A stretch of 64,000 nucleotides of DNA from an uncultured archaeon (GCA_964591795.1 CAZQEL010000001.1:12189-76188); one strand, 5' to 3'; shown: positions 25,286-61,867, counted from the first letter of the stretch. A program made the numbers and translations. The notes: generated from the letters alone by a model not told the origin.

Positions 25286-25358
25286 GGTCAAAACCGGGAT
25301 TCGAACCCGGGCCAGGAGCTCCACAGGCTCCTATGCTAACCACTACACTACAATGACC
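25286..25358 (-). tRNA. tRNA-His (anticodon GUG) with an encoded G-1.
   Basis: Reverse complement GGUCAUUGUAGUGUAGUGGUUAGCAUAGGAGCCUGUGGAGCUCCUGGCCCGGGUUCGAAUCCCGGUUUUGACCC. Perfect anticodon stem GGAGC/GCUCC with loop CUGUGGA. T-arm CCGGG-UUCGAAU-CCCGG. An extra 5' G pairs with C73. The acceptor stem as drawn has two U-U mismatches, which lowers confidence slightly. Confidence 0.7.
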
Positions 25359-27032: not shown

Positions 27033-28304
27033 TTAAGAAGAAGGATTAACCATTCTTCCTAAAAATAAAATTTCATTAGTTTCATTTTCTTGAATTATGA
27101 AAATAAAAGGATGATCTGCATTGAAAATAATATTAGCTACTGGATTAGGCATAGATTTAGCTATCATTATAACAGCAGTAGCTGCTGCAGCTTCTGTTCC
27201 TTTTTCATCAACTGAAACAAATGCTTGGTGAATAACTTTAGATATCATTAACCTTGTATCTCCATTCATTTTTGAAAAATCAGCAGCAGAACGTGAAAAT
27301 GCAGTAGGCATACCCATATCACTCAAATTATTCTGCAAGTAATATCTAGTATCAAATTTAAATTTAGGTAAATTTATTTTAGAAACTTCTTTTTGAGTCA
27401 TACTTTTTTTCCATTCATTTAGTTTTGCATAACTTAAAACTTTTTCTAATGAACTAACATTGTCTTTAGGTAAAAGAACTAACATTGAAAGTTCATTATC
27501 TTTATATGGTAATTCTATTATTTGAAGTAAATCATTTTCAAAATAATTAAATTTTTTATCCTCTGGAGACATAATCATAGTTGGAATTTTAATAATATTG
27601 TTAGAATTAACTTTAAAATTTAAATCCATTGTATCTTTTTTATCAAATTGATATTTCCAATCTCCTTTAAAATAAATGGCATTTGTTAAAACTAATTTTG
27701 TATCATCTGTAAGATCATTTTGTTCTAAAAGATCGTTTATTTTATTATCTGTTTGCTGAAAAATAAAATCATTAATTGTAAGTCTTGATTTTTCAAGTTC
27801 ATTAATAAAATCTAAATTAACTGCTTTACCACCATAATATTTTTCAATTAAATTAAAATATTCTGGTAAAAAAGAAAATTCTTTTTGAGCCCATAAAGCA
27901 TTTCCTGTTCTTAATTCATAAGATTTTTCTTTTTTATTTATTATATTATATATAGCAGCAGAATTAGGTCTTAAAATATTGTTTTCTGGAAAATAAAATA
28001 CATTTTTCATTTCCTCTGCAGTAGCTCCATTTGCACCTTCATAAGTCATTGCAAGCGCACTATAAATACTATATGGTGAAAAAAATAAATTTTCAGTATT
28101 TGTTTTACTTAAATCAAAATACATATCCATTGCAAATTGATTATTTGCATTTGAAACTTCTTGGATACCTTCTAAAGTATACCCACTATCATTTACTTCT
28201 GGTGGACTTACAGGATCATATGGAAAAACAAATAATGCAATACCTGCACTTACAATTCCAATAAATACAAAAACAAATAAAATTGACAACCATTTTTTAT
28301 TCAT
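27033..28304 (-). CDS. Membrane-anchored serpin, copy 2. A tandem paralogue of copy 1.
   Basis: Near-identical N-terminal half to copy 1. Hinge ...VDEKGTEAAAATAVIMIAKSMPNPVANII... and signature FNADHPFIFIIQENETNEILFLGRMVNP. The 3' ends and flanks are near-identical at the DNA level (attaagaagaaggattaac...). Confidence 0.85.
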   Translation of the reverse strand: MNKKWLSILFVFVFIGIVSAGIALFVFPYDPVSPPEVNDSGYTLEGIQEVSNANNQFAMDMYFDLSKTNTENLFFSPYSIYSALAMTYEGANGATAEEMKNVFYFPENNILRPNSAAIYNIINKKEKSYELRTGNALWAQKEFSFLPEYFNLIEKYYGGKAVNLDFINELEKSRLTINDFIFQQTDNKINDLLEQNDLTDDTKLVLTNAIYFKGDWKYQFDKKDTMDLNFKVNSNNIIKIPTMIMSPEDKKFNYFENDLLQIIELPYKDNELSMLVLLPKDNVSSLEKVLSYAKLNEWKKSMTQKEVSKINLPKFKFDTRYYLQNNLSDMGMPTAFSRSAADFSKMNGDTRLMISKVIHQAFVSVDEKGTEAAAATAVIMIAKSMPNPVANIIFNADHPFIFIIQENETNEILFLGRMVNPSS

Positions 28305-38814: not shown

Positions 38815-41800
38815 TTAACTACATTTTAAAGCATCACGTTCAGCTATAAATTCTTCAGGATAAATTTCAGCAGGGTTATAGAAAAACTCAGAAGAAGAAC
38901 CATCTGTTGAATTTAGAACACAAATCTGATTTTCTGCAATTAAATCAAACACACTCTTTATAGAATTAATACTAGAAACTGCAGTTTGATATCCTAATGA
39001 AACATTTGGACTAAAGTCAGTTCCATTTAATGAAAATTTAACACCAACATCTTGATCTGACTTATTCTCAAGAGTATATGTTTCTTTTTCAGGAGCATAG
39101 AAAATAGTTCTTAAATAAATTTCACCTGTTTTAATAACTTGTGGCCAATCTAAAATATAGGATGATTGAGGACCATTAAGTGATGCATATCTATCATAGT
39201 AAGCCATGTTAAATATACTATTTCCTGAAAAGTCACAGCCAGAACCAACACCAGTCCATCTTAAAAGAGAAGATGAGTCTGTAAGTGTATTATCTGACTT
39301 ATCTTTCAACCTATAAAACACATTTAATGGATTAGTATTATTTTTTGTAACTTCCATTAAAATTGGCACAGCTTCACTTTTGCTTAAAATTAAATCAATA
39401 TTATTTGCATTATATTTAACACTTAAAATATTACCTCTAGTTTCAAGAGAAGAATTAATTCTATAAAAATCACTTGAATTAGTAATATTTATATTTCTTA
39501 ATGCATTTGAACCATTATCTAAATCTGATTTTACATTATCTCCATCAATATTAATTATATCTCCAGTATAACTTACACCATATCCTTGTCTATTATAACC
39601 TGAATTTGTTTGACCAACAAATCCATTGAATGGTATTCTATAAAATACACTATCTGTTTCTGGTGATTGTAAAAATCTAAATGTTACATAAGTATTTAAA
39701 TCTACTTGATCAGCAACATCTGTAAATCTCCAACTACTATCATTAAATAAAAAATCAATTTTAATTTTATATTTACCAGGACTTGTTAGATTCACATTAT
39801 TTTTTTCGCTTGAATATTGTTTTATAAAATATAAATTATTCTTAAAAAGTTCAGATAAATAACCATTACTAAATACTTCTGGTGAAGACATAAAAGTATA
39901 AATTCCTGTTCCAGAACCATCTTCTTTAGATGCTAAACCACCATATGCAACATCAAAATCATTTATAAAATTTTGATTATAGTTATCTGTTATTAAATAC
40001 GCGTCAAACTCTAAAAGTTTTTTAAAATCTATAATATCCTGTTGACTCCAACCATTTCCATTAACATTATCAGGATACATATTTTTATTAAACCATAAAT
40101 CAAGATAACTAATTCCATTATAATTAGCTGTAGTTGAAGGAACCTTACAATCTGTTACTGGTGCTTCATCATATATATCTAAAGACACTATTGATTCAAA
40201 TTTATTATTTTGCATATCAACAGATTCACCAGTAAGATTAATATTTAAAGATAAATCATCACCAATTATTGGTGAATTTGAACTTTCAGTAAATTCTAAA
40301 ACTATTTCTGAAAAAGTATCATCTTCAGAAATATTTAAAGTTACAGGTATTAAATTTAAAGCTTCAGTAAAACCAACTAAATCTCCATCAGCATTTCTAT
40401 AATAAGCAGCTGTAGGATATTCATTATTTAATTTAGCAACTATATTTCCAATTTTTATACTTCCAGATCTATTGTCTAAATAAATTTTAGAAATAAATTT
40501 ATTTTCTGCAGTACTTAATTCAACAGAATCAATACCAACTTTAGATACTGAAACATTATTATCAGCATTAATAGGTTCTGCATTTTTAATGTAATAAAAA
40601 CCATTTAAACTTTGAATTACTTGTTCTTGAGGACTTAAAGGATATAATACTGTTCTTTGTGATATGAATTCTTCAGCTTTATTTATTCTGTTTAAAACAA
40701 CTTGAGTTAATTGAGTTGAATCACAATATTTTTCAGAACATCTATTAATATCTTGAACTGACCAATCCCAATCTAATAATACATTTGGAACTGCACCAGA
40801 ACCAGTTTTACCAGTTTTACCAGTATCTGTAACACAATCTTGAACTACCAAATTATAATTTTGTGTTTCTTCTGGTTTAGTAATAAAAAATCCAAATCTA
40901 TAGTTTCCAATCTTTTCAGAATTTGCAAATGCAGGATCTTGTATTTCAACTGAATCTTCAAGTGTTGGATTAAATTCATAGTTTTTAAAATAATATTTCT
41001 TTGAATCATTATTAATGTGACTATATATGTTATCAGTAAAACTAAATTGTAATGGTTTTATTCCAGATTGCTCTGGCCATAATGTTTCATTAACTTTACA
41101 AGTATAAAACATTTCAGTTTCAAGTTGTATTCTATTTCTAGTTGGTTTTGCACCATAACATTTAATTGATTGAGATAAAACTCCATCTTCAATTGTTGGA
41201 TTAAATGAATTATCACAATTTCTATTTTTTATTATTTGAGAATAATAATCTTCAATACTTGAATTAGGATTATTACATAAAACATAATCTGTTAAAGATA
41301 AATCAGCGTCTTTTGTAAGTCTATCTTTAATTTTATTATAAATTTTATCTGAATCTTGTGTTCTTGTAATTAAATCATTATAAGTATAATATCTAGCACC
41401 AGTAATATCAAAAATATTTAAATAAGAAGATTCATCGGATACATCATCTACAGTGATTATTTTTAAAAATTCACCATTAGAAAGTGTATACTTTTGAGGA
41501 ACATCTAAATATTTATTATTTAAAACTGGATATGCAAATTCATTTTTCCAAGAAGTTGCTGCCCAAGAAACTAAAACAATCACAGCTAAAGTAATCCAAC
41601 CATAAACAGGAATAGCAGCTAAAACTGCAGCAAATCCAACAGATCCAGCTGCAGTAGCACTAGCAACTGCAATTTCAAGCGCTGCAGCAGTAGCAATACT
41701 TAAACCAACCGCAGTAACAGTTGCTGCAGCTAAAACAGTTATACCAATTGCAGCAGCAACAGGCATAGCACCTTCATCAGTAGTACCCATAAATTCTAAA

Positions 41801-44800
41801 TTTTCTAAGGATTTATAATTCATTTTTTGGAAAGCATCATCTTGTTTATTAAAAGTTGATGACAAATAATCAGAAAAGGTAGATGTAACAGTAACTCCAT
41901 TTTGAGCAATTTGAGCTTTATATTGTTCAACATCCTGAACTGTAGGAATAGAATTAACATAATCCCAAGGAGTCTGTTCTAAATTATTATTATATAATCT
42001 TACACTTTCAGAAACTTTAGTAGTATCTGAAATTTCAATAAAAGGATCCTCCATCCATAAACCACTAGAATCTTTTGCATTTATTTTTAATAAAGCATAA
42101 GCTGAAGTAACTTCACGTCCAATATTATTAACAACAGATATTTTATTGTTTAAAACATAAGCACCAGGAGCAATAGTTGAATCTTTTCTTTTAATTGAAA
42201 CAGTTTTTTCTGAGTCTAAAAGACTAAAATTTAAAATACCATTTTCTTCATCAGTATTATCAATAGATAAATCTCTACAGGAATAATCATTTCCTTCACA
42301 AAGATCCATTTTTAATGTTGCTTTACCAAAACATTCGTTTTTAATAGTTAGATCTTTAGCTACAGTATCCTCAAGAACAAAAAGACCACCAGAATTAATT
42401 TTTTCTCCACCATCATAATAGGATAAACATTGTGTTAAATCCATAATTGATATATTTGCTTTTAATAAAATATCATTAGAACCTTTATTTACAAAAGTTA
42501 AACCCTCTTCTGTTTCTACTTGAGCATTTAAATAAATATCAGTTTTTACTTCTGCAAATTTAGCACCATTTGTGTTAAATGCAATTTCAACAGTATATTC
42601 TTCTTCAGGTCTCATTTCATTAATTAAAATTCTATAATAATTTTCTGATAATTGTATTTGATTAGAAGCACCTGAACCAATTAATTTTAAGAAATAAATA
42701 CCATATCTATCTCCATTAGATTTAATTTTTGCTTGAACATTCTTAATTGTTATAGGTAAATTTCCTTCTTTAGAGATACAAGTGTTTTTTATTTTTAAAG
42801 TTGTAGATTGGGTTGTTGTTGAAACAACTGTATTCCATTCACCAGCACTTTGAGTAACAACTAAACAATCATCTTCTAAAACACCGTTTCCAACAGATAA
42901 TTTTACATTAACAGGAATATTAAATAAATATTTTTGATTATTTAATAAATAAGTGGCAGTTAAAGCACCTAAAATATTTTCACTTACAGAATGTGATTGA
43001 GCACTTTCAGAAGGTGCAAATTTAATTAAAATTTCTTTAGATTCGTTTGCAGGTATTACAAAACCATCAGGTGTACTAATTATTTGATTATTAAGATAAT
43101 TAACAGTTTGTAAAAGATTTAATAAATAGGATTTATTAAAAGAAACATCCTGTTCATTAAATTGATTTAAAATTAATGGATATGCAGTTTTATTTTTAAG
43201 TTCTAAAGTATATATCTCCCCATCCATATTTGTCTTATGAATAAATACTTCTAATGGTGAATTTGAATTAATTATTTCAGAATTATTAAAAATATCAATA
43301 ATATCTCTAGTAATTGAAAATTCAACTGGATCTGCAAAATATTTAGATTTAATAGATTCAATTATAAAAGTTTCTCCTGGTCTTAAAGATGGAAGACTAA
43401 TTGTAGCTTTTCCTTCTGCATCAGTTGTTCTACCAGTTGAAACTATAGTTGTTCCAGTTATTGTTTTTTGTAAAATATTAATATTTGCACTCTCAACAGC
43501 ATTTCCAGTAGTATCTTTAACAATTACGGTTAATGTAAATGGAACACCAGGTACAATATTTTTAGGTTCATAATCAACTATCATTTTATCAAGATCTGAT
43601 ACAACAAAGTTAATTGGTAAAGTATAAATTACTGATTGTTCAGAAACAATTCTAGTTTGAAGTTTTGATTGTCCTAAAATTAATGGGAATAATTTTAAAT
43701 TAAAATTTATATTTGAAAACGGATTTAAATTATCCTTTAAAAGTTCATTTTCATAAAATGGAAGTTTAAAATTAGTTTCTCCAGTTGCAGTTTCGCCCAC
43801 TGATGAAAATTCACCTGTAACATCATATGATTTAATACCAACCATAGCTGTAGGATTACCTTCAGAATTAACATTAACTGCTGAAAGTCTAGCATCAGGA
43901 TAATTATTAGGTGATGAGTTTGTTATTTGATATTCTAAAGTATAATCAGAGTTAACAAGCATTGGAATATTTTTATTTCCTCCAATATCATATCTTAATC
44001 CTTCTGAAACATCAACATATTGTCCTGAGAAACAAAATGTAGTATTACAAAGACTTGTTGCTTCTACAAAATATTGTAATTGAGTATAATTTTGAGTCAT
44101 GTAGTTTATAGATGTAATTGATGATGTATAAAAGAAAGATACTTTATCATTAGTTTGTGCATTTCTAATTCTTACAGGAATTGTAATTTCATGAACTGAT
44201 GCTGGAAAATCATTTACTTGTATATTTACAAGTTTTGATTCTAAATAATTACTTGAATTTGAAAAAGGTTCACTCTCATAATAAACAGCTACACCTAAAG
44301 AGTTATTTTCAGACATTATAAAAATAATATCATCACTAACATTTATTTCACTTCCAGCTCTAAGTGTAAAATTAAAATTTGTACTTGAAGATGGCATTAT
44401 AATTTTATATTTTAAATAAAATACTTGATTATTTTTTAAAGATTCAACTTCTTGATAGTCAGTATTATATAAACCTAAATATTCAGTAACAACATCTTCA
44501 GTTGTAAGCGCTCTTTCTAAAATAATATTTTTAATAATAGTTTTACTTTTATAAATTCTAAACATTTCAGTAAAATAAGGTAAATAACCATCAGTTTCTA
44601 TTTTTATGAAAACTTTTTTATCTGCTTTTATTTGATTTTGCAAAGTACCATTAGCTGAAGCCATTGCAGTTCCTAAAACAGCACCTGTTTCTGAATAAAA
44701 AGTTACTGTTGAATTACCAACTATTTCTTCTAATTTATTTTTTACATTTAAATTAATTGTTCCTTTTCCAATAATAACAGGAAGAGTAATATTTGTATCT

Positions 44801-46332
44801 GTTGGTGGTAAATTATGATATTCAGAAGAAATTTCTTCAATATAAAGATTCTTTGTCTTAACTGTAAAGTTTAAATCTGGAATATTTTTAAAAACTGCAT
44901 TTCCATTTTCATCAGAAATACTAAAATCAAATCTAGGATCAATATATTGCCCATCAGCATCATATAACCAAGATTTAATACCAATAATTGGTTTATCATC
45001 TTCGTCTTTTATTGAAACAATAATATTTGAAACATTACTTATAGTTATTTTTTCTAAATTAAAAGTATATATGTTTAATGAATTAGATACTGACATTAAA
45101 TTTCCAGGAATGTACCCTTCTGCTGCTACTTTAAGTGAATAATTTTTATTAGTATCTACATTAAAAATAAAACCTTCATGAAGTTGTCTATCTTCAACAT
45201 TTTGATTTCCATCTAAAAGTAAAGTAACAATAGGATTTGTAGAAGCATCTAAAACAATACCTGTATCTCTATCTTTTACAAAAACAGTTATTTCATTTAA
45301 AATAATTTCTTGATTTGTATCTGGATCAATAACAGGACTAATTCCATCTCCAGTATCAATCATATTAATAGTAATTTCAGACATTGCATTTTTTATAACA
45401 ATTACATCTTCTTGTGATGCTAAATATCTATTTTGAACATCTGTAGCTTTAACAACATAATCACCAATAGGAATAGAATCAAAAGATCCAACCCCAAAGT
45501 TTGATTGAATTGTTTTTATTGAACTAACAGGATCATCAACTGAGAATATTTTTAAAGTAATTGAGTCTTCAATATAATACTCTCCACTCATTAAAGAAAC
45601 ATAAGCAGATCCAACTTCTAAAGAAATTTCTTTTGGACTTAATCTAATGATTGAATCAGACATTTTTATTGGAATACTTGTAGCATTATATTTATCACTT
45701 ACTACATTTGCATAAAGAGTTTTACAGCTTGAAGGAACTTCTAAAGACACAGAACCATCAACTGTTTCTATTGATGAAGGTGTAATTACATCTCCATTAT
45801 CACAAATAATAGTTACACTTAAAGCATCTTTAATTTTTTGTTCAGTTAAAGCATCTTGAAAATATACAATTTTTGGAAAATTAACTGGAATATTTAAAAG
45901 ACCGATTATAAAATTAAAAGTTTGTCTATCAAAAATTAGTTCTTGTTCATAATAGTCATAACCTTCTTGTTCAACAATAAACAAATAAGAATTATTTTTA
46001 TTTAAGGTGATTTTAAAAGAACCAGCAACATTTGTAGTATAATTATTTGTAGTTCCGTCTGATATGTTTCTAAGTTTAAAATCAAAATTACTTAAAATAT
46101 TATTTTCATTATCAGCAAGCCTTAAAGTTACATCAATGTTATTTGATTTTAATGAACCTAAACTTGAACCAAAAATTAAATAAAGTACTATTAAAATAAT
46201 TAAAATGAATAAAAAAAAAGAAGTTAAAGGATACTTTTTATCTAAAGGACCTGTTATTTTCTTAATTGGAATTCTATTATCTATCCCTGTAAGAATATTT
46301 TGCCATGTCTCTTTAAAACTCATAAAAATCAC
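38815..46332 (-). CDS. Giant membrane-anchored surface protein (2505 aa). It has an N-terminal signal anchor, ~1400 aa of beta-sandwich repeats, an internal Ala-rich hydrophobic segment and the family C-terminal module.
   Basis: N-terminal TM FFLFILIILIVLYLIF. Repeats VEQEGYDYYEQELIF, VAAEGYIPGNL, IETDGYLPYFTEMF. Internal hydrophobic block AMPVAAAIGITVLAAATVTAVGLSIATAAALEIAVASATAAGSVGFAAVLAAIPVYGWITLAVIVLVSWAATSW. C-terminal motifs LLDWDWSVQDINRCSEKYCDSTQ, FYRIPFNGFVG...RQGYGVSYTGD, WTGVGSGCDFSG and ...ICVLNSTDGSSSEFFYNP. Confidence 0.8.
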   Translation of the reverse strand: MIFMSFKETWQNILTGIDNRIPIKKITGPLDKKYPLTSFFLFILIILIVLYLIFGSSLGSLKSNNIDVTLRLADNENNILSNFDFKLRNISDGTTNNYTTNVAGSFKITLNKNNSYLFIVEQEGYDYYEQELIFDRQTFNFIIGLLNIPVNFPKIVYFQDALTEQKIKDALSVTIICDNGDVITPSSIETVDGSVSLEVPSSCKTLYANVVSDKYNATSIPIKMSDSIIRLSPKEISLEVGSAYVSLMSGEYYIEDSITLKIFSVDDPVSSIKTIQSNFGVGSFDSIPIGDYVVKATDVQNRYLASQEDVIVIKNAMSEITINMIDTGDGISPVIDPDTNQEIILNEITVFVKDRDTGIVLDASTNPIVTLLLDGNQNVEDRQLHEGFIFNVDTNKNYSLKVAAEGYIPGNLMSVSNSLNIYTFNLEKITISNVSNIIVSIKDEDDKPIIGIKSWLYDADGQYIDPRFDFSISDENGNAVFKNIPDLNFTVKTKNLYIEEISSEYHNLPPTDTNITLPVIIGKGTINLNVKNKLEEIVGNSTVTFYSETGAVLGTAMASANGTLQNQIKADKKVFIKIETDGYLPYFTEMFRIYKSKTIIKNIILERALTTEDVVTEYLGLYNTDYQEVESLKNNQVFYLKYKIIMPSSSTNFNFTLRAGSEINVSDDIIFIMSENNSLGVAVYYESEPFSNSSNYLESKLVNIQVNDFPASVHEITIPVRIRNAQTNDKVSFFYTSSITSINYMTQNYTQLQYFVEATSLCNTTFCFSGQYVDVSEGLRYDIGGNKNIPMLVNSDYTLEYQITNSSPNNYPDARLSAVNVNSEGNPTAMVGIKSYDVTGEFSSVGETATGETNFKLPFYENELLKDNLNPFSNINFNLKLFPLILGQSKLQTRIVSEQSVIYTLPINFVVSDLDKMIVDYEPKNIVPGVPFTLTVIVKDTTGNAVESANINILQKTITGTTIVSTGRTTDAEGKATISLPSLRPGETFIIESIKSKYFADPVEFSITRDIIDIFNNSEIINSNSPLEVFIHKTNMDGEIYTLELKNKTAYPLILNQFNEQDVSFNKSYLLNLLQTVNYLNNQIISTPDGFVIPANESKEILIKFAPSESAQSHSVSENILGALTATYLLNNQKYLFNIPVNVKLSVGNGVLEDDCLVVTQSAGEWNTVVSTTTQSTTLKIKNTCISKEGNLPITIKNVQAKIKSNGDRYGIYFLKLIGSGASNQIQLSENYYRILINEMRPEEEYTVEIAFNTNGAKFAEVKTDIYLNAQVETEEGLTFVNKGSNDILLKANISIMDLTQCLSYYDGGEKINSGGLFVLEDTVAKDLTIKNECFGKATLKMDLCEGNDYSCRDLSIDNTDEENGILNFSLLDSEKTVSIKRKDSTIAPGAYVLNNKISVVNNIGREVTSAYALLKINAKDSSGLWMEDPFIEISDTTKVSESVRLYNNNLEQTPWDYVNSIPTVQDVEQYKAQIAQNGVTVTSTFSDYLSSTFNKQDDAFQKMNYKSLENLEFMGTTDEGAMPVAAAIGITVLAAATVTAVGLSIATAAALEIAVASATAAGSVGFAAVLAAIPVYGWITLAVIVLVSWAATSWKNEFAYPVLNNKYLDVPQKYTLSNGEFLKIITVDDVSDESSYLNIFDITGARYYTYNDLITRTQDSDKIYNKIKDRLTKDADLSLTDYVLCNNPNSSIEDYYSQIIKNRNCDNSFNPTIEDGVLSQSIKCYGAKPTRNRIQLETEMFYTCKVNETLWPEQSGIKPLQFSFTDNIYSHINNDSKKYYFKNYEFNPTLEDSVEIQDPAFANSEKIGNYRFGFFITKPEETQNYNLVVQDCVTDTGKTGKTGSGAVPNVLLDWDWSVQDINRCSEKYCDSTQLTQVVLNRINKAEEFISQRTVLYPLSPQEQVIQSLNGFYYIKNAEPINADNNVSVSKVGIDSVELSTAENKFISKIYLDNRSGSIKIGNIVAKLNNEYPTAAYYRNADGDLVGFTEALNLIPVTLNISEDDTFSEIVLEFTESSNSPIIGDDLSLNINLTGESVDMQNNKFESIVSLDIYDEAPVTDCKVPSTTANYNGISYLDLWFNKNMYPDNVNGNGWSQQDIIDFKKLLEFDAYLITDNYNQNFINDFDVAYGGLASKEDGSGTGIYTFMSSPEVFSNGYLSELFKNNLYFIKQYSSEKNNVNLTSPGKYKIKIDFLFNDSSWRFTDVADQVDLNTYVTFRFLQSPETDSVFYRIPFNGFVGQTNSGYNRQGYGVSYTGDIINIDGDNVKSDLDNGSNALRNINITNSSDFYRINSSLETRGNILSVKYNANNIDLILSKSEAVPILMEVTKNNTNPLNVFYRLKDKSDNTLTDSSSLLRWTGVGSGCDFSGNSIFNMAYYDRYASLNGPQSSYILDWPQVIKTGEIYLRTIFYAPEKETYTLENKSDQDVGVKFSLNGTDFSPNVSLGYQTAVSSINSIKSVFDLIAENQICVLNSTDGSSSEFFYNPAEIYPEEFIAERDALKCS

Positions 46333-54943: not shown

Positions 54944-57900
54944 TTAATTATTTTTAAAGTTATCTGGATTATGCCATAATTTTATTTCTGAAGAATCTGA
55001 CATAAAACATACGTTATTATTTTTAATTTCATTAAATACTTGTGTCATATTATTATATGTTAATCTTGGAGACACATTATTCATATTTAAATTATATATT
55101 GTAAATTGATTATCATTATTTGTTGTTGCTGCGAAAACCTTTGTATATTGTGTAAACTTAGGATTTGCATATATTGTTACTTTTTGATTTGTGTTATCAG
55201 AAAGTAAGAATAATTTTGATGCAACATCTAAAGATGCAATCTCAGTATTATTTTCAGATACTTCTATAAGTTTTAAAGCATAGTTCTTACTAAAGTAAAA
55301 TGGTCTTGAATTTGTAAAATTATAATTTACCATATCCTTTAATGTAAATATATAACCTTCTTGTAAACTTGACCAGTTATCAGTAGTATAAGTTGTTTTA
55401 ATATACTCTGGTAAATATGGAGCTCTTAACACATTTAAAGATTTTTGATAATCTGGATTAATTGGCATATAGAATAAAATATTTTGTTTATAATCGTCAG
55501 AAATTCCATTTACTAAATCACCAATAGTTATTGATACATTATTATCATTTATATTTAAAAGCTTTACTATATAAGTACCAGGAACTAAAATATTTTTATC
55601 TTCTGTATACTCAAAATCATATTTTTTATATATATTATTATTATATTTAATTAATATTTTATTATTATATTCTTCTTTAGTTTGTGAAAACTTCTTAAGA
55701 TTAGAAGTAAACACTTGTGGTGATGCACCAAAGTAAACTTCCATATCTGAGTATAATGCAACTTTGTCTTCACTTGTTAAGCCTAAGTCATTATAATTAT
55801 CTAAGAAATATTTAACTGTAGTATAATTATAACCTCCAAGTGAAATTATATTACTACCATTTACGGTTAATTTATGTGTTTTAATTATTGTAATTTCTTT
55901 TAGTTCATCAGGAATATTATTTAATAATGATTCTGCAGAAGTAACATATGCATTTATAGAATTGTCACCTTTTGAGAATGCATCACAAACACCATCACAT
56001 AAATTAACTTTGATTGGGTTTACTTTAATTGTATTATTTGCAATTTCAAAATAAATATCTCCAAGTTTAACAAAGTTAGTTGTGTTACTTAAATCATCTA
56101 AACCATTTGCTTTAAATTTAAGATAATCATAGAATTGTTCTTGATCACAATAATACTCATTACAAGTGTTTCCAGTTATGTTTGAATATTCAAATAAGAT
56201 TTTATCAAATCCATATTTTTCATAAGCTTTAGTACCTGTAAATCCATCTTGGTTTTCTGAAAGATCAGGAGCATTACATAAAATTAAATCTTGTGTATCT
56301 AGATCATCTGAATCTGCATTTGGATCAGAAGGTTCAATAAAACTAAGTTCATTAGTTGCAACTTTAGTATCAACACCAATGAAAGTATGCCCTTGTAAAT
56401 AAGTTTTACTACTTTCTTCATTTATTGCCCATAATTCAAATTTTTCTTTGAAAAGATCATAAATTGGTAATTTTGAATTTATAACAAAATCATTTTCAAA
56501 TGCTTCAACTGGTCTTGTAAAACATAACTTGAATACATTTTTATTTCTAGTAACAAATTCAATACTTACTTTTAATGGATCATAGGTATCAGGTAAATAG
56601 AACAAACCAATATCTTTAATATGTGAAGTTTCTTTAATCCCAGTTATAGGGAAGTCCTTAACATAACCAAAGAAACATCTAGTTACTTCTGGTTCTTGAT
56701 CTATTTGTTTAAATTTATTAAAAGCTAATTCTGCTTCTGGAACTTGTATGAATACAGCATTTCTTGCAGAATCTATTTTATAAGTTAATTTTACTGAAGT
56801 ATCAACAAACTCTAATTCTTCATCAGTCATATCCTGATCGCCAGTGAATTCATTTAAAATATCCCAGTTATCTTTATTATCTAAAATTAACCACTGAAAA
56901 TTATCTGTAAGTTGCATACCAATATTATTATAAATTATTGATGATTGACCCTGTGGTGATTGAAGACCAACACTAAGTATAAACTTTAAATTAACTGTAT
57001 CTTCAACATCAATTAACATTCTTCTAAATGTTGAAACTAAACCAGCTGCAACTGAGTTTGTTTTATATTTATTTAAGTATTCTTTTGCAGAGATTGTTTT
57101 TGAAATTTCAGGATTTCTTCTTAATGCAATTTCCCAAACTTCAATTGGATCATTAGTTTTTAAATCTGTTAAATAATCAACCTTTATAGGTTGAATTCTA
57201 CCTTGCATTTCTCCTACATTTAAGAAAGAAACACCATCAAAATTTAAATCCATTAAATCAAGATAATTAACTTCAACAAGTCTGTATCCTTCAGAAAAGC
57301 ATGAGTTCATAACTTTTACAATTTGGTATTTAGGATCTACTATATTAGAAAAATCTAATTTTTGTGGAGTTACCTGTATACATTTTGAAGGCATAAAACT
57401 TATTGGCAATGTTACACTAACTGGAATTTTTCCAACTAATGAATAAGCAGTACTTGATGAAACTGATGGTTTTACTGAAACAGGAATATTAAAACTACCC
57501 ATTTCTTCTCCACCCATTAAAAGAACTTCTTCTGAATCTCCTGGATTTAAAGAAAATTCAGCGTCACTTGTGATTGTAATTCCATAGTTAGGATCTAATT
57601 TTAAATCAACTGCTTCTAAACAATTATTTTTAATATATGTAGGTCTTACAGGACAATTCATATTATTTGTATTACCTTGTGCACCATAATTTCCTTGAGG
57701 ATAACCAGATGAAAAATTATAATTATTATTATAACCAGACATATTTTGAGCTTGACCAGTAGGATAATTATAGGGATTAACACTTGATGCTTGAGTACCA
57801 GTATAACCTGTTTGACCAACTAAATTATATTGAGGATAATTATATCCTTGTTGTTGAGTATAATACCCAGAACCCTGTTGATATTGATTATTTCTATTAT

Positions 57901-60900
57901 ATTGATTATTCATATTATAACTTTGAGTAAAATTGTTTCCACCATAATATGGATTATTCATTTGGTTCATTTGTCCAAAATTGTTTTGACCATGATATTG
58001 ATTATACATTCCATATCCACCAAACCAGTTACATCCTAAAATTGGAACTGCTTGTTTTGGTATTTCTATACATGTTGAATAATCGTTAACAATTACATTT
58101 GTTTTAAGAGAAGTTTCTACAACATCAACACCATTTATATTTCCTTTAGTTGATTTAAAATTAATTATTGGTGTTTCAACAGCAGAGTTAATTTTATAAG
58201 CTTTAAATTTAAGTTGCATTGTAGTTTTTGAATTTCTAGGCAAACTAGAAATAACTAAAGTATCAACTAAATTTTCTAAAATTGCTTCTTTATTTGAAAC
58301 TGATATAGAAAATGTACCTACTTCTGATTTATTTTTCCAATCTAAAGTTGCCATTATTTGTCCAAGATCTACTGGTCTTGAGTTAACAGTACATTTATTT
58401 TCTAATGTAAAATCAAGAGTTGTTGCTTCATTTGATTTTGTTCTTAAAGTACCTTCAACTGGAAGTATCTTTAAACAATCAAGTGAATCCAGTGAATTAC
58501 CTAAAACAATTCTAACTGTAACAGGTATTGTTACTGTCCAAATTTTATTAAGTTCAGTATTTTTAAATTTAATTAAAACATCAGTTTTAAATGTTTCTTG
58601 AGTATAAAGATTAATACCTTTTTCTGTTAATGTAGCTGAAAGCTCAACATCTGCTTGAGATGCATTATCTATTAAACTATCAGTTAAATTAAATTTTAAA
58701 TCAACATATTCACTAGCAGCTGTTTGTTCAATTGACATTACTGTTAATGGAACATATGTTTCATTAATTAAACTAAAATTATAAATTTCTTTAACATCTC
58801 TTGAAGCATCAAGAGTTAATGTTATTTCTTTAGGAACTGGAGTTATTAATTTATCATCAATTACAAGTTCAATATCTTGCATTCTATATTCATTTTTAGT
58901 TACAATTATTCTTAACACATCAGATACATTTGGAGCTGGTAAAATAAATCCAAATAATCCTTGATCATTTGTAACTCCTGTTTCAATAGTTTCGTTGTTT
59001 AATAAAATTGCAACATTTGCATTCTTCACTGAAACATTAGAATCATCACTAACAGATATCATCATATTATTAGTTAAGAAAGGAACTATTTTCCTAGGAA
59101 CATATTCAATAGTCATTTTCTTTGCAGCTTTTATATCTATTAATATGCTTTTTGAAAATACTTCTTGTCCGTTTGAAACTACAGTAAAATTAATTGTGTC
59201 TGAAACATCATCAACAACCTTAAAATTAACTTCACCTGTAACTAAATCGTTTGAAGTTAAGTTACCTAAACTAATTTCAGAAAAGTCATCACTTCTAAGT
59301 ATGCTTCCTGAAGAAGAATTAATTATATATTCTTTTAAAACAACTGAAGAACCAGTAGTTACTAAAAGAACTGCATCAGGAGCTATTTTTAAGTCCATCA
59401 TATTAAGACTAAATGAAAGTCTATAATCGTTATTTATTTGAGCATTATATTTATCAACAATACTTTTTGATAAATTTGTTTGTGTATTAGTAATTATAAA
59501 ACTATAACATAAAAGAGAAGTACATTGATTGTATGAACCAGTGAACAACTGAACTTGCTTTGATTGTGCATATAATGTTTGCTTTGTACTTGTTGAAACT
59601 AAAGAGGTATCAACTGGTGTTCTTACAACACTTGCACCCTTATAAAATTCAGCTCTATAATTTACTGCTTGATTTGTAAAAGCAGTATCAAGAACAATAA
59701 TATCAGCTTCAATTAAATGACTTCCTAAAACTGGATTTTTAATAGTTAAATTAAACCATTTTGCATTTCTTAAAGTTTTGTTTGAAAAATCAGTTGTTTG
59801 ACCTAAACATGGTGTATAAGTTAATGAACCTAAAACATCAGATTTAGAATATCTAACATCTTTAATAAATAAATTATCTTCTGAAACATTATAAGATCTT
59901 GTAGAACATAAAGGATTTGGTGTTTCTCCAGTTCTAATATGTGCAGTTACTTTTGAAAATGATTTTGTAACATTTAAAATAAATCTTGCAGTTACTTGTG
60001 CACCAGGAGCAACTGAATTAATTTTTTCTCCAGTAGCATCATAGAAACCTAAAAATTCAATTCCAGATGTATTTGAACTTCTTGGTAAAGTAAACTCTAA
60101 GTTTTTAACTTCACTTGCATCAATTGAATATCTTGGAGTAATAAATTGTGATTCAAAATTATCTATAGCAAAATAAACTTGTTTATCTGCTCTAATTTTT
60201 ATTAAAGTAAAACCATCTTGGTTAGTTGTTGTTGTTTTATCATTAAGTATCATATCATTTGAAGAATCATAAACATATATGTTACCAGAATAATTTTCTC
60301 CAAATTCTGATTTTAAAATTAAATTAAATGTTCCTTCTCCAATTACCATTTTAATTGTTTGTTCGTTAATTTCTTGTTCTGAAATTTTAAATGGATTTGT
60401 ATAATCAGAAGTAAATTTTCCTTTAACTGCATCAAGTTTATATGTTCTTTCAGTATCTAAATTTGTAACAATAACTTTACCATAAATATCAGCTGTCATT
60501 GTTTGAAGAACAATACCTTCATCAGCATCCCAAAGTCTAACTGTTGCAAAATCAACTGGACTTAATAATACATCTTTAACTGTAATTATTAAACTTCTAA
60601 TATTTTCATTTGTAATTGGAACTAATGAAATTGGTTTAACATTATCATTTATTCTTAAATTATTTTCTGTTTTTAAAATATAACTTTCGTTATTGAAAAC
60701 TACTTTATAAGAAATATTTTCCTCAACACCAAAAGACACTAAACCAGTATCATCAGTAGTTTCGGTTTTAATAACTACATTTCCTTTGTACAAAGAAGTT
60801 GTAACATTTAAAACAGGTTCTTTTGTAATTGCATTAACAACTTTAAATTTAAGTTTACCAATGAATGCTTTTTCAATTAAAACTTCACTAGTCGCTAAAG

Positions 60901-61867
60901 CACCATCAACAAAGCTAATTTGAACTGAATCAAGTTCACTTATAGGTTTATACCTATCATCATCATCATAAATCACAACATAGTATGTTCCTACTGAAAC
61001 AGCATTAAAATAAACTACACCATTTGTGTTTGTAACACCTTCACGCACTGCTTGACTTTGCATATTATAAATTGAAACAGATACATTTGAAACTGGAACT
61101 TTTAAATCTTTATCTAAAACAGTAATTGTTCCATCACCTAATTTCATTGCTTCAAAACTTAAGTTAACTTCACCAGCTGCATTATCTTCATTTACTTCTA
61201 AAGATTCTAAAGCATTAACTGTAGATGATTCTATTGACACTTGTAAATAACCACAATCAGAAGGAATATCTGTTAAAGTAATTATTCCATCATTTATAGA
61301 AATATCACTTTTTATATAATCTTCATTTCCAGAACATGTTATACTTGAAACTGTTAATGGAGATGAATATAATTCGTTATTTGATTTAAAATTAATTGTT
61401 TTAGAAAGAGTTTTTATTTTTAATTTTAAAGTTACAGTAAAGTTTAATTTTTCACTAAAATTTATTTCCTGAGGAGTTTCAATTAAATATTTATCACTAT
61501 TAATACCTAGTGTGATTTTTTCTTTTTTAACATCTGAGACAATTGCAGCACCATAAGCATCAGAAACTAATTGTTTCTTAGTACTACCAAATAAAATATT
61601 AAAGGATTGATTAATTATAGGTTCGTTTTGATTATCAACAAATTTAAGAGCATAACTTTCATCTGTAGTTGGAGTTGTTCCAACAAACATAAAAACTAAA
61701 AATATTATTAAAAGCAGTATAATTAAATTAAATAATAAAAAAGTTGGAATTCCATGCTTTTCTAAAGGATCAACAATTTTATATAAATTTATTCCTTTTT
61801 TTTCTAAGTTATCAAGAAACTTAAAATATTTTTCTTCTTGTTTGTAGTAAAAAGCTCTTAAACCCAT
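54944..61867 (-). CDS. Giant membrane-anchored surface protein (2307 aa). It has the conserved MGL leader and TM, beta-sandwich repeats, a ~140-aa Q/N/Y/G-rich low-complexity domain and the family C-terminal module.
   Basis: N-terminus MGLRAFYYKQEEKYFKFL...IPTFLLFNLIILLLIIFLVFMFV. Low-complexity ...NWFGGYGMYNQYHGQNNFGQMNQMNNPYYGGNNFTQSYNMNNQYNRNNQYQQGSGYYTQQQGYNYPQYN... C-terminal motifs NEYYCDQEQFYDYL, ILFYMPINPDYQ and ...NNVCFMSDSSEIKLWHNP. Confidence 0.8.
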   Translation of the reverse strand: MGLRAFYYKQEEKYFKFLDNLEKKGINLYKIVDPLEKHGIPTFLLFNLIILLLIIFLVFMFVGTTPTTDESYALKFVDNQNEPIINQSFNILFGSTKKQLVSDAYGAAIVSDVKKEKITLGINSDKYLIETPQEINFSEKLNFTVTLKLKIKTLSKTINFKSNNELYSSPLTVSSITCSGNEDYIKSDISINDGIITLTDIPSDCGYLQVSIESSTVNALESLEVNEDNAAGEVNLSFEAMKLGDGTITVLDKDLKVPVSNVSVSIYNMQSQAVREGVTNTNGVVYFNAVSVGTYYVVIYDDDDRYKPISELDSVQISFVDGALATSEVLIEKAFIGKLKFKVVNAITKEPVLNVTTSLYKGNVVIKTETTDDTGLVSFGVEENISYKVVFNNESYILKTENNLRINDNVKPISLVPITNENIRSLIITVKDVLLSPVDFATVRLWDADEGIVLQTMTADIYGKVIVTNLDTERTYKLDAVKGKFTSDYTNPFKISEQEINEQTIKMVIGEGTFNLILKSEFGENYSGNIYVYDSSNDMILNDKTTTTNQDGFTLIKIRADKQVYFAIDNFESQFITPRYSIDASEVKNLEFTLPRSSNTSGIEFLGFYDATGEKINSVAPGAQVTARFILNVTKSFSKVTAHIRTGETPNPLCSTRSYNVSEDNLFIKDVRYSKSDVLGSLTYTPCLGQTTDFSNKTLRNAKWFNLTIKNPVLGSHLIEADIIVLDTAFTNQAVNYRAEFYKGASVVRTPVDTSLVSTSTKQTLYAQSKQVQLFTGSYNQCTSLLCYSFIITNTQTNLSKSIVDKYNAQINNDYRLSFSLNMMDLKIAPDAVLLVTTGSSVVLKEYIINSSSGSILRSDDFSEISLGNLTSNDLVTGEVNFKVVDDVSDTINFTVVSNGQEVFSKSILIDIKAAKKMTIEYVPRKIVPFLTNNMMISVSDDSNVSVKNANVAILLNNETIETGVTNDQGLFGFILPAPNVSDVLRIIVTKNEYRMQDIELVIDDKLITPVPKEITLTLDASRDVKEIYNFSLINETYVPLTVMSIEQTAASEYVDLKFNLTDSLIDNASQADVELSATLTEKGINLYTQETFKTDVLIKFKNTELNKIWTVTIPVTVRIVLGNSLDSLDCLKILPVEGTLRTKSNEATTLDFTLENKCTVNSRPVDLGQIMATLDWKNKSEVGTFSISVSNKEAILENLVDTLVISSLPRNSKTTMQLKFKAYKINSAVETPIINFKSTKGNINGVDVVETSLKTNVIVNDYSTCIEIPKQAVPILGCNWFGGYGMYNQYHGQNNFGQMNQMNNPYYGGNNFTQSYNMNNQYNRNNQYQQGSGYYTQQQGYNYPQYNLVGQTGYTGTQASSVNPYNYPTGQAQNMSGYNNNYNFSSGYPQGNYGAQGNTNNMNCPVRPTYIKNNCLEAVDLKLDPNYGITITSDAEFSLNPGDSEEVLLMGGEEMGSFNIPVSVKPSVSSSTAYSLVGKIPVSVTLPISFMPSKCIQVTPQKLDFSNIVDPKYQIVKVMNSCFSEGYRLVEVNYLDLMDLNFDGVSFLNVGEMQGRIQPIKVDYLTDLKTNDPIEVWEIALRRNPEISKTISAKEYLNKYKTNSVAAGLVSTFRRMLIDVEDTVNLKFILSVGLQSPQGQSSIIYNNIGMQLTDNFQWLILDNKDNWDILNEFTGDQDMTDEELEFVDTSVKLTYKIDSARNAVFIQVPEAELAFNKFKQIDQEPEVTRCFFGYVKDFPITGIKETSHIKDIGLFYLPDTYDPLKVSIEFVTRNKNVFKLCFTRPVEAFENDFVINSKLPIYDLFKEKFELWAINEESSKTYLQGHTFIGVDTKVATNELSFIEPSDPNADSDDLDTQDLILCNAPDLSENQDGFTGTKAYEKYGFDKILFEYSNITGNTCNEYYCDQEQFYDYLKFKANGLDDLSNTTNFVKLGDIYFEIANNTIKVNPIKVNLCDGVCDAFSKGDNSINAYVTSAESLLNNIPDELKEITIIKTHKLTVNGSNIISLGGYNYTTVKYFLDNYNDLGLTSEDKVALYSDMEVYFGASPQVFTSNLKKFSQTKEEYNNKILIKYNNNIYKKYDFEYTEDKNILVPGTYIVKLLNINDNNVSITIGDLVNGISDDYKQNILFYMPINPDYQKSLNVLRAPYLPEYIKTTYTTDNWSSLQEGYIFTLKDMVNYNFTNSRPFYFSKNYALKLIEVSENNTEIASLDVASKLFLLSDNTNQKVTIYANPKFTQYTKVFAATTNNDNQFTIYNLNMNNVSPRLTYNNMTQVFNEIKNNNVCFMSDSSEIKLWHNPDNFKNN

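What the first reader, a model, noticed from the sequence alone, without database searches (positions are those of the whole stretch)
57595..58020. Prion-like Q/N/Y/G-rich low-complexity domain inside the 2307-aa surface protein
About 140 residues are composed almost only of N, Q, Y, G, M and S (...YGMYNQYHGQNNFGQMNQMNNPYYGGNNFTQSYNMNNQYNRNNQYQQGSGYYTQQQGYNYPQYNLVGQTGYTGTQ...GYNNNYNFSSGYPQGNYGAQGNTNNM). This occupies the same linker position that holds the Ala-rich hydrophobic block in the 2505-aa paralogue. Such composition is typical of eukaryotic prion-like or phase-separating domains and of some bacterial adhesin stalks. It is unusual in an archaeal extracellular protein.
Basis: seen in the sequence. 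Interest (0 to 1): 0.55.

Follow-up and report, generated by a model that had tools for sequence, protein, structure and literature searches.

The report
Tyrosine-rich disordered loop, archaeal surface giant
A 125-residue floppy, uncharged, tyrosine-rich loop sits between two rigid domains of a giant cell-surface protein of a tiny symbiotic archaeon, and it is conserved by selection, so it probably acts as a sticky contact patch and not as a spacer or a prion.

Summary
Residues 1280-1404 of the 2307-aa ORF (window 57656-58030, minus strand) are 70% N/Q/Y/G, with 1 charged and 3 aliphatic residues. An independent assembly carries the same sequence.

- The organism is a Forterrea-like Iainarchaeote (DPANN). 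[quoted passage not shown]
- The segment is not a slippage-prone linker. Its DNA has no real tandem repeat, its length is invariant among strain variants, dN/dS is about 0.3, and close orthologues are 63-66% identical there, like the folded parts.
- It is predicted disordered. It sits inside a conserved cysteine bracket between two Ig-like domains, so it is probably a pinned loop.
- Across 66 family members the conserved trait is about 21% evenly spaced aromatic residues with almost no charge. Q/N content (4-38%) follows genomic AT bias.
- It is not positionally equivalent to the Ala-rich block of the 2505-aa paralogue, which lies about 190 residues further along.

Best reading, by inference: a cohesive or adhesive "sticker-spacer" loop. 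Amyloid formation is untested. It is a new member of a known kind, of moderate interest.

The parts
54944..61867 (-). Gene for the 2307-aa giant surface protein that carries the low-complexity loop
   Evidence: ORF list and translation. Full-length orthologues at 57-62% identity, and a family of about 250 representative proteins. The orthologous cluster is described in Ca. Forterrea.
61754..61867 (-). N-terminal cytoplasmic segment (residues 1-38), with a motif shared by the giant paralogues (FYYK.EEKYF.FLD...GI.LYKIVDPLEK.GIPTF)
   Evidence: Seen directly in the sequences and in the BLASTP alignment with p1862.
61679..61753 (-). Single N-terminal transmembrane anchor (residues 39-63). Everything downstream is predicted to be extracellular.
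   Evidence: Kyte-Doolittle scan; it is the only hydrophobic segment in the protein. Translation checked.
58031..58477 (-). Ig-like (ASH/PapD-like) beta-sandwich domain D1, residues 1131-1279. It ends with Cys a (58070-58072) and Cys b (58031-58033).
   Evidence: AF2 pLDDT above 90. Foldseek matches to CEP192 SPD-2/ASH and pilin folds. Cys a is present in 77 of 77 family members.
57656..58030 (-). The low-complexity loop itself, residues 1280-1404: N/Q/Y/G-rich, charge-free and predicted disordered.
   Evidence: Composition statistics. AF2 pLDDT 25-43 with no secondary structure in two runs. Conservation and dN/dS.
57989..58018 (-). Conserved island 1 inside the loop, residues 1284-1293: G-[YF]-G-x-Y-x-x-Y-x-G
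   Evidence: In a 27-sequence alignment: G1284 in 24/27, position 1288 aromatic in 27/27, G1293 in 22/27.
57749..57766 (-). Conserved island 2 inside the loop, residues 1368-1373: [YF]-P-x-x-x-[YF]. The target has Ala at the last position.
   Evidence: Position 1368 aromatic in 23/27, P1369 in 25/27, position 1373 aromatic in 24/27.
57866..58009 (-). Three degenerate 16-residue units (MYNQYHGQNNFGQMNQ / MNNPYYGGNNFTQSYN / MNNQYNRNNQYQQGSG). They look like traces of an old internal duplication, not an active repeat.
   Evidence: the repeat finder found a 48-nt spacing at 60-89% identity. TRF found only an 18-nt unit x 2.2 copies.
57398..57655 (-). Ig-like beta-sandwich domain D2, residues 1405-1490. 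It begins with Cys c (57653-57655) and Cys d (57620-57622).
   Evidence: AF2 pLDDT 75-94. Cys d is conserved family-wide. Cys b and Cys c are always present together or absent together.

Best explanation
What it is (shown). The segment is a conserved, intrinsically disordered, uncharged, aromatic-rich loop of 125 residues. It is inserted at the junction of two Ig-like (ASH/PapD-like) domains, about 1,220 residues beyond the membrane anchor. The host protein is a giant extracellular protein of a Forterrea-like Iainarchaeote (DPANN).

Geometry (inferred from cysteine covariation). The loop lies inside a family-wide cysteine bracket (Cys a ... Cys d). In this clade a second pair (Cys b - Cys c) sits directly at its two ends. 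The loop is therefore most likely pinned at its base by disulfides and bulges out sideways. It would not lengthen the stalk.

What selection keeps (shown). Tyr/Phe occur every 4-5 residues, prolines and two short motifs are conserved, and charge and aliphatic residues are excluded. The filler between the aromatic residues drifts with genome composition: N/Q here at 25% GC, G/S/T/P/A in GC-richer relatives.

How it most likely works (inferred, not shown). The loop acts as a 'sticker-and-spacer' module. Its many exposed tyrosines make weak, multivalent contacts. The partners would be the same loop on neighbouring molecules, another protein of the gene cluster, or the envelope of the host cell. 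This would give cohesion or adhesion at a fixed height above the membrane, in a locus already proposed to mediate cell-cell interaction. It is not a heritable prion switch and not a length-variable spacer.
For: Organism and locus:
- The window has archaeal split RNA polymerase subunits and 25.5% GC.
- Relatives are Ca. Iainarchaeum, Diapherotrites and Ca. Forterrea multitransposorum.
- Gene order is conserved in related genomes.

Disorder:
- AF2 gives the loop pLDDT 25-43 while both flanking domains are confident (D1 above 90, D2 75-94). This holds with 13 and with 27 aligned sequences.

Selection:
- Identity to P0002-P0005 is 63-66% in the loop, against 58-63% overall.
- Strain-level clusters show no indel in the loop.
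- dN/dS is 0.30 in the loop against 0.26 for the rest of the gene.

Family-wide trait (66 proteins with an insert of 60 aa or more, median junction length 92 aa):
- Aromatic residues: median 21.6% (IQR 19-23), against 8.4% elsewhere in the proteins.
- K/R/D/E: 4.8%, against 23%.
- I/L/V: 5.5%, against 23%.
- Q+N ranges from 3.6 to 38% and correlates with AT-codon bias (rho 0.55, p = 1.6e-6). Aromatic content does not (rho 0.05).
- Aromatic and Pro positions are the best conserved: 83% and 89% in close orthologues, 42% and 58% in distant ones, against 20% and 8% expected by chance. Q positions fall to chance level.
- Two conserved motif islands lie inside the loop.

Pinned loop:
- Cys a is present in 77/77 and Cys d in at least 74/77 proteins.
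- Cys b and Cys c are both present in 48 proteins, both absent in 29, and never alone. They change state together about 7 times on a rough tree.
- Relatives without the loop keep the a...d bracket with only 5-31 residues between.
Against: - No experiment or structure bears on function. Cohesion or adhesion is inferred from composition, by analogy with eukaryotic low-complexity domains.
- The positional conservation (63-66% identity, conserved motifs) is higher than usual for a purely disordered sticker-spacer region. It could mean that the loop folds in a complex that AF2 cannot see.
- The disulfides are inferred from covariation only, because the tool gave no model coordinates for measuring Cys-Cys distances.
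- dN/dS rests on a single strain pair, with 13 nonsynonymous and 10 synonymous changes in the loop.
- In that pair the loop accumulated amino-acid changes 2.5 times faster than the rest of the protein (9.3% against 3.7%).
- The loop sits mid-protein and not at the distal tip, which is not the obvious place for a host-binding site.
Confidence: 0.45

Rival explanations
1. The loop is disordered only in isolation and folds on binding one specific partner. That partner could be another giant protein of the cluster, the 559-aa or 973-aa neighbour, or a host envelope component. The tyrosine-rich loop would then act as a large, antibody-CDR-like recognition surface and not as a generic sticky patch.
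For: - Sequence identity in the loop equals that of the folded domains.
- Two motif islands are near-invariant across 27 diverse sequences.
- Strains show no indels in the loop.
- Gene order with the neighbours is conserved.
- From my own knowledge: Tyr/Ser/Gly/Asn-rich loops dominate antibody paratopes.
Against: - Length varies from 79 to 135 aa across the family, and most of the sequence is not alignable between distant members.
- AF2 sees no structure even with the deeper alignment.
- No partner has been identified.
Confidence: 0.2
2. The loop is a functional amyloid or prion-like self-templating element. It would stack into cross-beta fibrils that link molecules or cells, as the Sup35N-like composition suggests.
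For: - It passes the Q/N-rich criterion with 33 Q/N in 80 residues.
- It contains NNQY/QQG strings similar to the Sup35 zipper peptide GNNQQNY (my own knowledge).
- Several archaeal candidate prion domains form amyloid in vitro.
Against: - Q/N richness is confined to the AT-rich close clade. Distant homologues have only 16-24 Q/N per 80 residues.
- Q positions are not conserved.
- Prolines are the best-conserved residues in the loop, and Gly is 15%. From my own knowledge, both disfavour long amyloid cores.
- The likely disulfide-closed loop constrains in-register stacking.
- The only cell-wall candidate prion domain tested by Zajkowski et al. was negative in both assays.
- A membrane-anchored extracellular protein cannot act as a cytoplasmically inherited prion.
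Confidence: 0.12
3. The loop is a passive flexible element: a hinge, an entropic bristle or a protease-tolerant spacer. In this reading its exact sequence does not matter.
For: - It is predicted disordered.
- It lies between two folded domains.
- Its length varies between distant family members.
Against: - The conserved cysteine bracket implies that the flanking domains are stapled together independently of the loop.
- Loop-less relatives join the same two domains with 5-31 residues.
- dN/dS is 0.30, identity is 63-66%, strains show no indels, and aromatic and Pro positions are conserved.
- From my own knowledge, spacers and bristles are usually charged or Ser/Thr/Pro-rich, not 21% aromatic.
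Confidence: 0.12
4. The loop is a neutral by-product of extreme AT mutational bias, like the Asn-rich inserts of Plasmodium proteins. It would be tolerated because it sits in a surface loop.
For: - The genome is 25.5% GC.
- 63 of the 125 loop codons are AAT, TAT or CAA.
- Q+N content of the insert correlates with AT-codon bias across the family.
- Zajkowski et al. note the same bias for archaeal candidates.
Against: - GC-richer relatives keep an insert of similar length and aromatic density built from G/S/T/P/A.
- The loop shows purifying selection (dN/dS 0.30) and no slippage.
- It is the only such segment in 64 kb of equally AT-rich coding sequence.
- Charged residues encoded by AT-rich codons (Lys AAA; Glu GAA) are excluded, although Lys is 6.9% of the protein.
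Confidence: 0.05

Closest known systems
Yeast-type prion-like domains (Sup35 N domain; PLAAC-type Q/N-rich domains)
   Same: Composition is nearly the same (N+Q 38%, Y 16%, G 15%; aromatic spacing 4.7). Charged and aliphatic residues are almost absent, and the region is predicted disordered.
   Different: The loop is extracellular and membrane-anchored. It is an internal loop bracketed by cysteines, not a terminal domain. Q/N content is not conserved among homologues, and self-templating is untested.
FUS-family SYGQ-rich low-complexity domains (aromatic 'sticker-spacer' regions that phase-separate)
   Same: Tyrosines are regularly spaced in small polar spacers with few charges. GC-richer family members carry (G/S)Y(G/S) runs and are compositionally closer to FUS-LC than to Sup35N.
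   Different: The setting is prokaryotic and extracellular, with no partner RGG or RNA-binding domain. The loop is much shorter (79-135 aa) and has denser aromatics. Condensate formation has not been tested.
Archaeal candidate prion domains catalogued by Zajkowski et al. (bioRxiv 10.1101/2020.07.20.212902)
   Same: They are Q/N-rich segments in archaeal proteins, more frequent in AT-rich genomes, enriched in cell-wall and adhesion proteins, and found in DPANN including Diapherotrites.
   Different: That survey was compositional and made no family-level analysis. Here the segment is shown to be orthologously conserved, under purifying selection, and defined by aromatic pattern and not by Q/N.
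The cluster of giant membrane-anchored proteins of Ca. Forterrea multitransposorum (Probst & Banfield 2018, PMC5905446)
   Same: It is the same gene cluster in a related genome: the Forterrea chromosome CP045477.1 encodes a relative that is 70% identical over the 261 residues following the loop, and JGI contigs encoding the orthologue P0005 (57% identical overall; its cluster's longest contig is 839,632 bp, the length of that genome) have the same gene order. The authors proposed a role in cell-cell interaction.
   Different: The paper mentions only size, anchoring and clustering. It does not describe the low-complexity loop, its cysteine bracket or the domain architecture.
Low-complexity stalks of bacterial and fungal adhesins (Ser/Thr- or repeat-rich, length-polymorphic)
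   Same: Both are compositionally biased segments inside a large surface protein built from Ig-like domains.
   Different: The loop has no DNA tandem repeats, no strain-level length polymorphism and no Ser/Thr richness. It is probably a side loop and not an in-line stalk.

Membership tests
Q/N-rich prion-like domain (Michelitsch-Weissman / PLAAC type) | At least 30 Q+N in 80 consecutive residues (or a positive PLAAC core of 60 residues or more) | tested here: met
   33 Q/N in the best 80-residue window, starting at residue 1288. PLAAC itself could not be run.
Q/N-rich prion-like domain (Michelitsch-Weissman / PLAAC type) | Depletion of charged and aliphatic residues, and predicted disorder | tested here: met
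   1 K/R/D/E and 3 I/L/V in 125 residues. AF2 pLDDT 25-43.
Q/N-rich prion-like domain (Michelitsch-Weissman / PLAAC type) | Q/N richness is the maintained property of the domain across homologues | tested here: not met
   Only the closest clade reaches 28-33 Q/N per 80 residues; other homologues have 16-24. Q+N ranges 3.6-38% and tracks AT bias. Q positions are conserved only at chance level.
Q/N-rich prion-like domain (Michelitsch-Weissman / PLAAC type) | Forms self-templating amyloid that is heritable or transmissible | not testable with these tools
   This needs ThT or Congo-red assays, EM, C-DAG or yeast Sup35-fusion assays.
Aromatic sticker-spacer low-complexity domain (FUS-LC-like) | Evenly spaced Tyr/Phe in small polar, uncharged spacers, with the pattern conserved | tested here: met
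   Aromatic residues 20% with mean spacing 4.7. Family median 21.6% (IQR 19-23), independent of GC. Aromatic positions are 83% conserved in close orthologues.
Aromatic sticker-spacer low-complexity domain (FUS-LC-like) | Tyrosine-dependent self-association, condensate or hydrogel formation | not testable with these tools
   This needs a purified protein, turbidity or microscopy assays, and Tyr-to-Ser mutants.
Slippage-type repeat linker or adhesin stalk | Tandem DNA repeats underlie the segment | tested here: not met
   TRF finds only an 18-nt unit x 2.2 copies (score 64) and a 6-nt unit x 3.3 copies. The repeat finder finds only three 48-nt units at 60-89% identity.
Slippage-type repeat linker or adhesin stalk | Length polymorphism between close strains | tested here: not met
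   Loop length is identical within four clusters at 90% identity or more (10, 10, 2 and 2 sequences). Only substitutions are seen.
Slippage-type repeat linker or adhesin stalk | The segment is the only tether between the two flanking domains | tested here: inconclusive
   Cysteine covariation suggests that a-d and b-c disulfides staple the domains together. No coordinates or chemistry were available to prove it.
Curli-type functional amyloid (CsgA-like) | Several imperfect repeats with a conserved Ser/Gln/Asn ladder motif | tested here: not met
   Only three degenerate 16-residue units, which are not conserved across the family. There are no Pfam, NCBIfam or PDB sequence hits.
Variable region of a diversity-generating retroelement | A nearby template repeat copy and a reverse transcriptase | tested here: not met
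   blastn at word size 7 finds no second copy of the loop DNA in the window. No reverse transcriptase was found among the 24 window ORFs of 150 aa or more that were scanned against Pfam.
N-glycosylated linker of an archaeal surface protein | Enrichment and conservation of N-X-S/T sequons | tested here: not met
   There are 0-4 sequons per loop, equal to the compositional expectation, and their positions are not conserved.

The most novel reading that the evidence does not exclude
The loop is an ancient extracellular use of the sticker-and-spacer principle in prokaryotes. Tyrosine-rich, disulfide-pinned loops on neighbouring giant proteins would cohere into a gel-like canopy or adhesive contact zone. 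This zone would sit around the DPANN cell or at its interface with the host. Selection would act on the aromatic pattern, while the spacer residues are free to follow genome composition. This would be condensate or hydrogel-type material physics operating outside a cell wall-less symbiotic archaeon, as part of its host-attachment apparatus.
Probability: 0.2. Interest if true: 0.7.

Novelty: new member of a known kind. Interest (0 to 1): 0.4.

Why it matters
DPANN archaea such as Ca. Forterrea lack most biosynthesis and must take cell components from a host. Their giant surface proteins are the prime candidates for that contact, yet they remain almost entirely uncharacterised.

This work gives one of those proteins a concrete, testable element. 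It is a conserved, probably disulfide-pinned, tyrosine-rich disordered loop between two Ig-like domains.

The family also offers a clean natural experiment on low-complexity domains. Relatives with different genome composition keep the aromatic pattern, the charge exclusion and the approximate length, but they swap N/Q for G/S/T/P/A. This separates what selection maintains from what mutational bias supplies. It also warns that prion predictors based on Q/N content will flag such segments in AT-rich genomes for the wrong reason.

Tried and rejected
1. Assembly or simple-repeat artefact. Rejected: an independent contig is identical, and the DNA has no real tandem repeat.
2. Slippage-variable linker. 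Rejected by the strain-level comparison.
3. DGR variable region. Considered because the loop is rich in AAT/TAT codons. Rejected: there is no template copy in the window and no reverse transcriptase among the ORFs scanned.
4. N-glycosylation tract. Rejected: sequons occur at compositional expectation and are not conserved.
5. Positional homology with the Ala-rich block of p2505. Rejected by hhalign and the cysteine landmarks.
6. Hidden folded domain. AF2 was repeated with a deeper 27-sequence alignment and the loop stayed at pLDDT 30-43. This cannot exclude folding in a complex.
7. Searches that gave nothing useful:
   - NCBIfam on the target and three neighbours.
   - PDB sequence searches with the loop, the C-terminal 817 residues and p762.
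   - The first search for related loci attempt with alignment A1, which returned an error.
   - The single-fragment scan of genome contigs, which found no relative. A second scan with a more conserved alignment did work.
8. Foldseek on the flanking domains gave only generic ASH/PapD/pilin-like Ig folds.
9. PLAAC, PAPA and fLPS could not be run. I used the Q/N-per-80 criterion and binomial tests instead.
10. The AF2 tool returns no coordinates, so Cys-Cys distances could not be measured.

Full report
OBSERVATION

The minus-strand ORF 54944-61867 encodes a 2307-aa protein. The compositionally biased stretch is delimited by two cysteines. It spans residues 1280-1404, which is window 57656-58030.

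In these 125 residues N is 23%, Y 16%, Q 15% and G 15%. There is one charged residue and there are three aliphatic residues. Against the composition of the rest of the protein the binomial probabilities are:
- N/Q/Y/G enrichment: 5e-32.
- K/R/D/E depletion: 1.6e-12.
- I/L/V depletion: 1.4e-12.

The stretch passes the classical Q/N-rich criterion with 33 Q/N in 80 residues. No other stop-free stretch of 150 aa or more in the 64-kb window exceeds 22. An independently assembled ENA contig matches the window over 17,112 nt with a single mismatch and none in this gene.

ORGANISM AND LOCUS

The window has 25.5% GC. It carries archaeal split RNA polymerase B'/B'' and A'/A'' subunits, L7Ae, S7, an ATP-dependent DNA ligase and several aminoacyl-tRNA synthetases.

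The target gene belongs to a run of same-strand genes for giant proteins of 2111, 762, 2505, 973, 1862, 2307 and 559 aa. The 2307-aa protein has a single N-terminal transmembrane segment. So do p1862, p762, p559 and p2111 (at residues 166-199). p973 has two N-terminal hydrophobic segments, and p2505 has an extra mid-protein hydrophobic block. The 2307-, 2505-, 1862- and 2111-aa proteins also have prealbumin-like or Big_1/MG-type Ig domains in their N-terminal halves.

Homologues carry these source names: Ca. Iainarchaeum, Ca. Diapherotrites archaeon and Ca. Forterrea multitransposorum. Gene order around the orthologues is conserved. Probst & Banfield 2018 (PMC5905446) described in Ca. [quoted passage not shown] This is the same cluster. 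Their paper does not mention the low-complexity segment.

IS IT A SLIPPAGE-PRONE LINKER?

No, for three reasons.
- At the DNA level TRF reports only an 18-nt unit x 2.2 copies and a 6-nt unit x 3.3 copies. The repeat finder reports only three degenerate 48-nt (16-aa) units.
- Four clusters of strain-level variants at 90% identity or more (10, 10, 2 and 2 sequences) each have exactly one loop length. They differ only by substitutions such as Y/F, N/S and S/P.
- Between two Forterrea-type strains, dN/dS is 0.30 in the loop (13 nonsynonymous, 10 synonymous changes). It is 0.26 for the rest of the gene and 0.08 for the two flanking domains.

Against the four closest orthologues (57-62% identical overall), the loop is 63-66% identical. 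It is therefore as conserved as the folded parts.

STRUCTURE AND GEOMETRY

I ran AlphaFold2 on residues 1120-1500 with 13 and then with 27 aligned sequences. Both runs gave two confident beta-sandwich domains: pLDDT above 90 for D1 and 75-94 for D2. Both runs gave the loop pLDDT 25-43 with no secondary structure. Foldseek places the flanking domains among ASH/PapD-like and pilin-like Ig folds.

The loop is bracketed by four cysteines:
- Cys a (residue 1266) and Cys b (1279) lie before it.
- Cys c (1405) and Cys d (1416) lie after it.

I examined 77 non-redundant family members in which both flanking domains were detected:
- Cys a is always present, and Cys d is present in at least 74.
- Cys b and Cys c are both present in 48 proteins, both absent in 29, and never present singly.
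- On a rough neighbour-joining tree the b-c pair changes state about 7 times, always together.
- Relatives without the loop, including the window's own 1862-aa and 2505-aa paralogues, keep Cys a and Cys d only 5-31 residues apart.

The most economical reading is an ancestral a-d disulfide that staples D1 to the first strand of D2. The low-complexity segment is then an insertion into that disulfide loop, and in many lineages a second b-c disulfide closes it at its base. This is inference from covariation. If it is right, the segment is a side loop and not an in-line linker.

WHAT IS CONSERVED ACROSS THE FAMILY

A profile search of 1.84 billion representative proteins found 253 relatives, 95 of them at E <= 1e-30. 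Of the 77 proteins with both domains, 66 have an insert of 60 aa or more; the median junction length over all 77 is 92 aa.

| Property of the 66 inserts | Inserts (median) | Rest of the same proteins |
|---|---|---|
| Aromatic residues | 21.6% (IQR 19-23) | 8.4% |
| K/R/D/E | 4.8% | 23% |
| I/L/V | 5.5% | 23% |

Q+N ranges from 3.6% to 38.4%, and the target is the maximum.

- Q+N correlates with the AT-codon amino-acid bias of the rest of each protein (Spearman 0.55, p = 1.6e-6).
- S/T/P/A and G correlate negatively (-0.45 and -0.33).
- Aromatic content does not correlate (0.05).
- GC-richer relatives carry runs such as GYGSYGSGYGSAYGGYGTGYG.

Column by column, aromatic and proline positions are the best conserved. 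They are 83% and 89% conserved in close orthologues and 42% and 58% in distant ones, against 20% and 8% expected from composition. Glutamine positions fall to chance level.

Two short islands are near-invariant in 27 diverse sequences:
- G-[YF]-G-x-Y-x-x-Y-x-G at residues 1284-1293.
- [YF]-P-x-x-x-[YF] at residues 1368-1373.

The selected feature is therefore an aromatic, uncharged pattern. The N/Q flavour seen in this window is what a 25%-GC genome supplies as spacer.

The 2505-aa and 1862-aa proteins are true paralogues: 21-23% identity over the N-terminal 1,100-1,200 residues. Profile alignment puts the loop's insertion point in p2505 between Cys1302 and Cys1334. Its Ala-rich hydrophobic block is at residues 1521-1595. 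The two features are therefore not positional equivalents.

The composition does resemble Sup35N.

Such segments are not unusual for archaeal surface proteins as a class. Zajkowski et al. found candidate prion domains in 873 of 1,262 archaeal proteomes. These were enriched for cell-wall and adhesion terms and were more frequent in AT-rich genomes. The one cell-wall candidate they tested was negative for Congo red binding and in the yeast assay.

MECHANISM

Shown:
- The segment is conserved and under purifying selection.
- It is predicted disordered.
- It is charge-free and aromatic-rich.
- It lies between two Ig-like domains of a membrane-anchored extracellular giant.
- The gene belongs to a locus proposed to mediate cell-cell interaction.

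Inferred:
- The loop is pinned by disulfides.
- Its tyrosines act as multivalent 'stickers'. They would give cohesion between neighbouring molecules, or adhesion to a partner protein or to the host envelope.

I rate this reading at about 0.45. The main rival is folding on a specific partner (0.2). It is favoured by the unusually high positional conservation and the motif islands. Amyloid or prion-like assembly (0.12) is weakened by four points: Q/N is not conserved, prolines are conserved, the loop is probably closed, and the setting is extracellular. A passive spacer (0.12) is weakened by the cysteine bracket, the conservation and the aromatic richness. A neutral AT-driven insert (0.05) is largely refuted by the GC-richer relatives and by dN/dS.

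REJECTED SIDE HYPOTHESES

- DGR variable region: there is no second copy of the loop DNA in the window and no reverse transcriptase among the ORFs scanned.
- N-glycosylation tract: sequons occur at compositional expectation and are not conserved.
- Known protein family: no NCBIfam, Pfam or PDB sequence match for the loop.

VERDICT

The feature is real and its composition is correctly described. It is mis-described as a variable linker, and it is not equivalent to the paralogue's hydrophobic block.

It is a new, family-conserved member of the known class of aromatic or prion-like low-complexity regions, with an unusual probable closed-loop setting. Interest is moderate (0.4). It gives a testable handle on DPANN host-contact proteins and a clean example of selection on aromatic residues while the spacers drift with composition. 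Function remains inferred.

Noticed in passing
window 41548-41772 (minus strand; residues 1521-1595 of the 2505-aa ORF 38815-46332): An Ala/Gly/Val-rich hydrophobic block of about 75 residues, long enough for 2-3 membrane spans, lies in the middle of an otherwise extracellular giant protein. Distant relatives P0015-P0017 carry similar G/A-rich hydrophobic blocks. It could be a membrane-inserting or fusion-like element.
   Followed up: partly
L003 10001-16972 compared with L005 1001-7969, codons ~1980-2120 (corresponds roughly to window ~55500-55930): Between two Forterrea-type strains, this C-terminal patch of the orthologous gene has dN/dS of 1.0-1.8, against 0.26 gene-wide. This suggests strain-level diversifying selection on a distal part of the protein.
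   Followed up: partly
window 61754-61867 and the N-termini of the ORFs ending at 54903, 46332 and 36027: The giant paralogues share a conserved cytoplasmic motif of about 40 residues just before the transmembrane anchor (FYY..EDKY..F.D......I..I.D..EK.[IV]P[ST]F). It may be a sorting signal or a docking site.
   Followed up: no
window 36051-38339 (minus strand; residues ~284-470 of the 762-aa ORF): Gly/Asn-rich repeats (GNGG.GG) alternate with short hydrophobic strands, which resembles a beta-helix. It has the second-highest Q/N density in the window. There is no Pfam, NCBIfam or PDB match.
   Followed up: partly
window 25737-27002 and 27033-28304 (minus strand): Two tandem full-length serpin genes (Pfam Serpin, E = 1e-108 and 1e-113) lie next to the surface-protein cluster in a genome-reduced DPANN archaeon.
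   Followed up: no
window 25285-25357 and 23898-25343: tRNA-His overlaps the 5' end of the mechanically called HisRS ORF (GTG start). The real start codon must lie further downstream.
   Followed up: no
window 29692-63718 and beyond the window end: The giant-gene cluster runs off the window. Orthologous loci have a further 2671-2696-aa gene upstream of the 559-aa gene. This matches the 'five proteins >1,800 aa in 42 kb' reported for Ca. Forterrea.
   Followed up: partly
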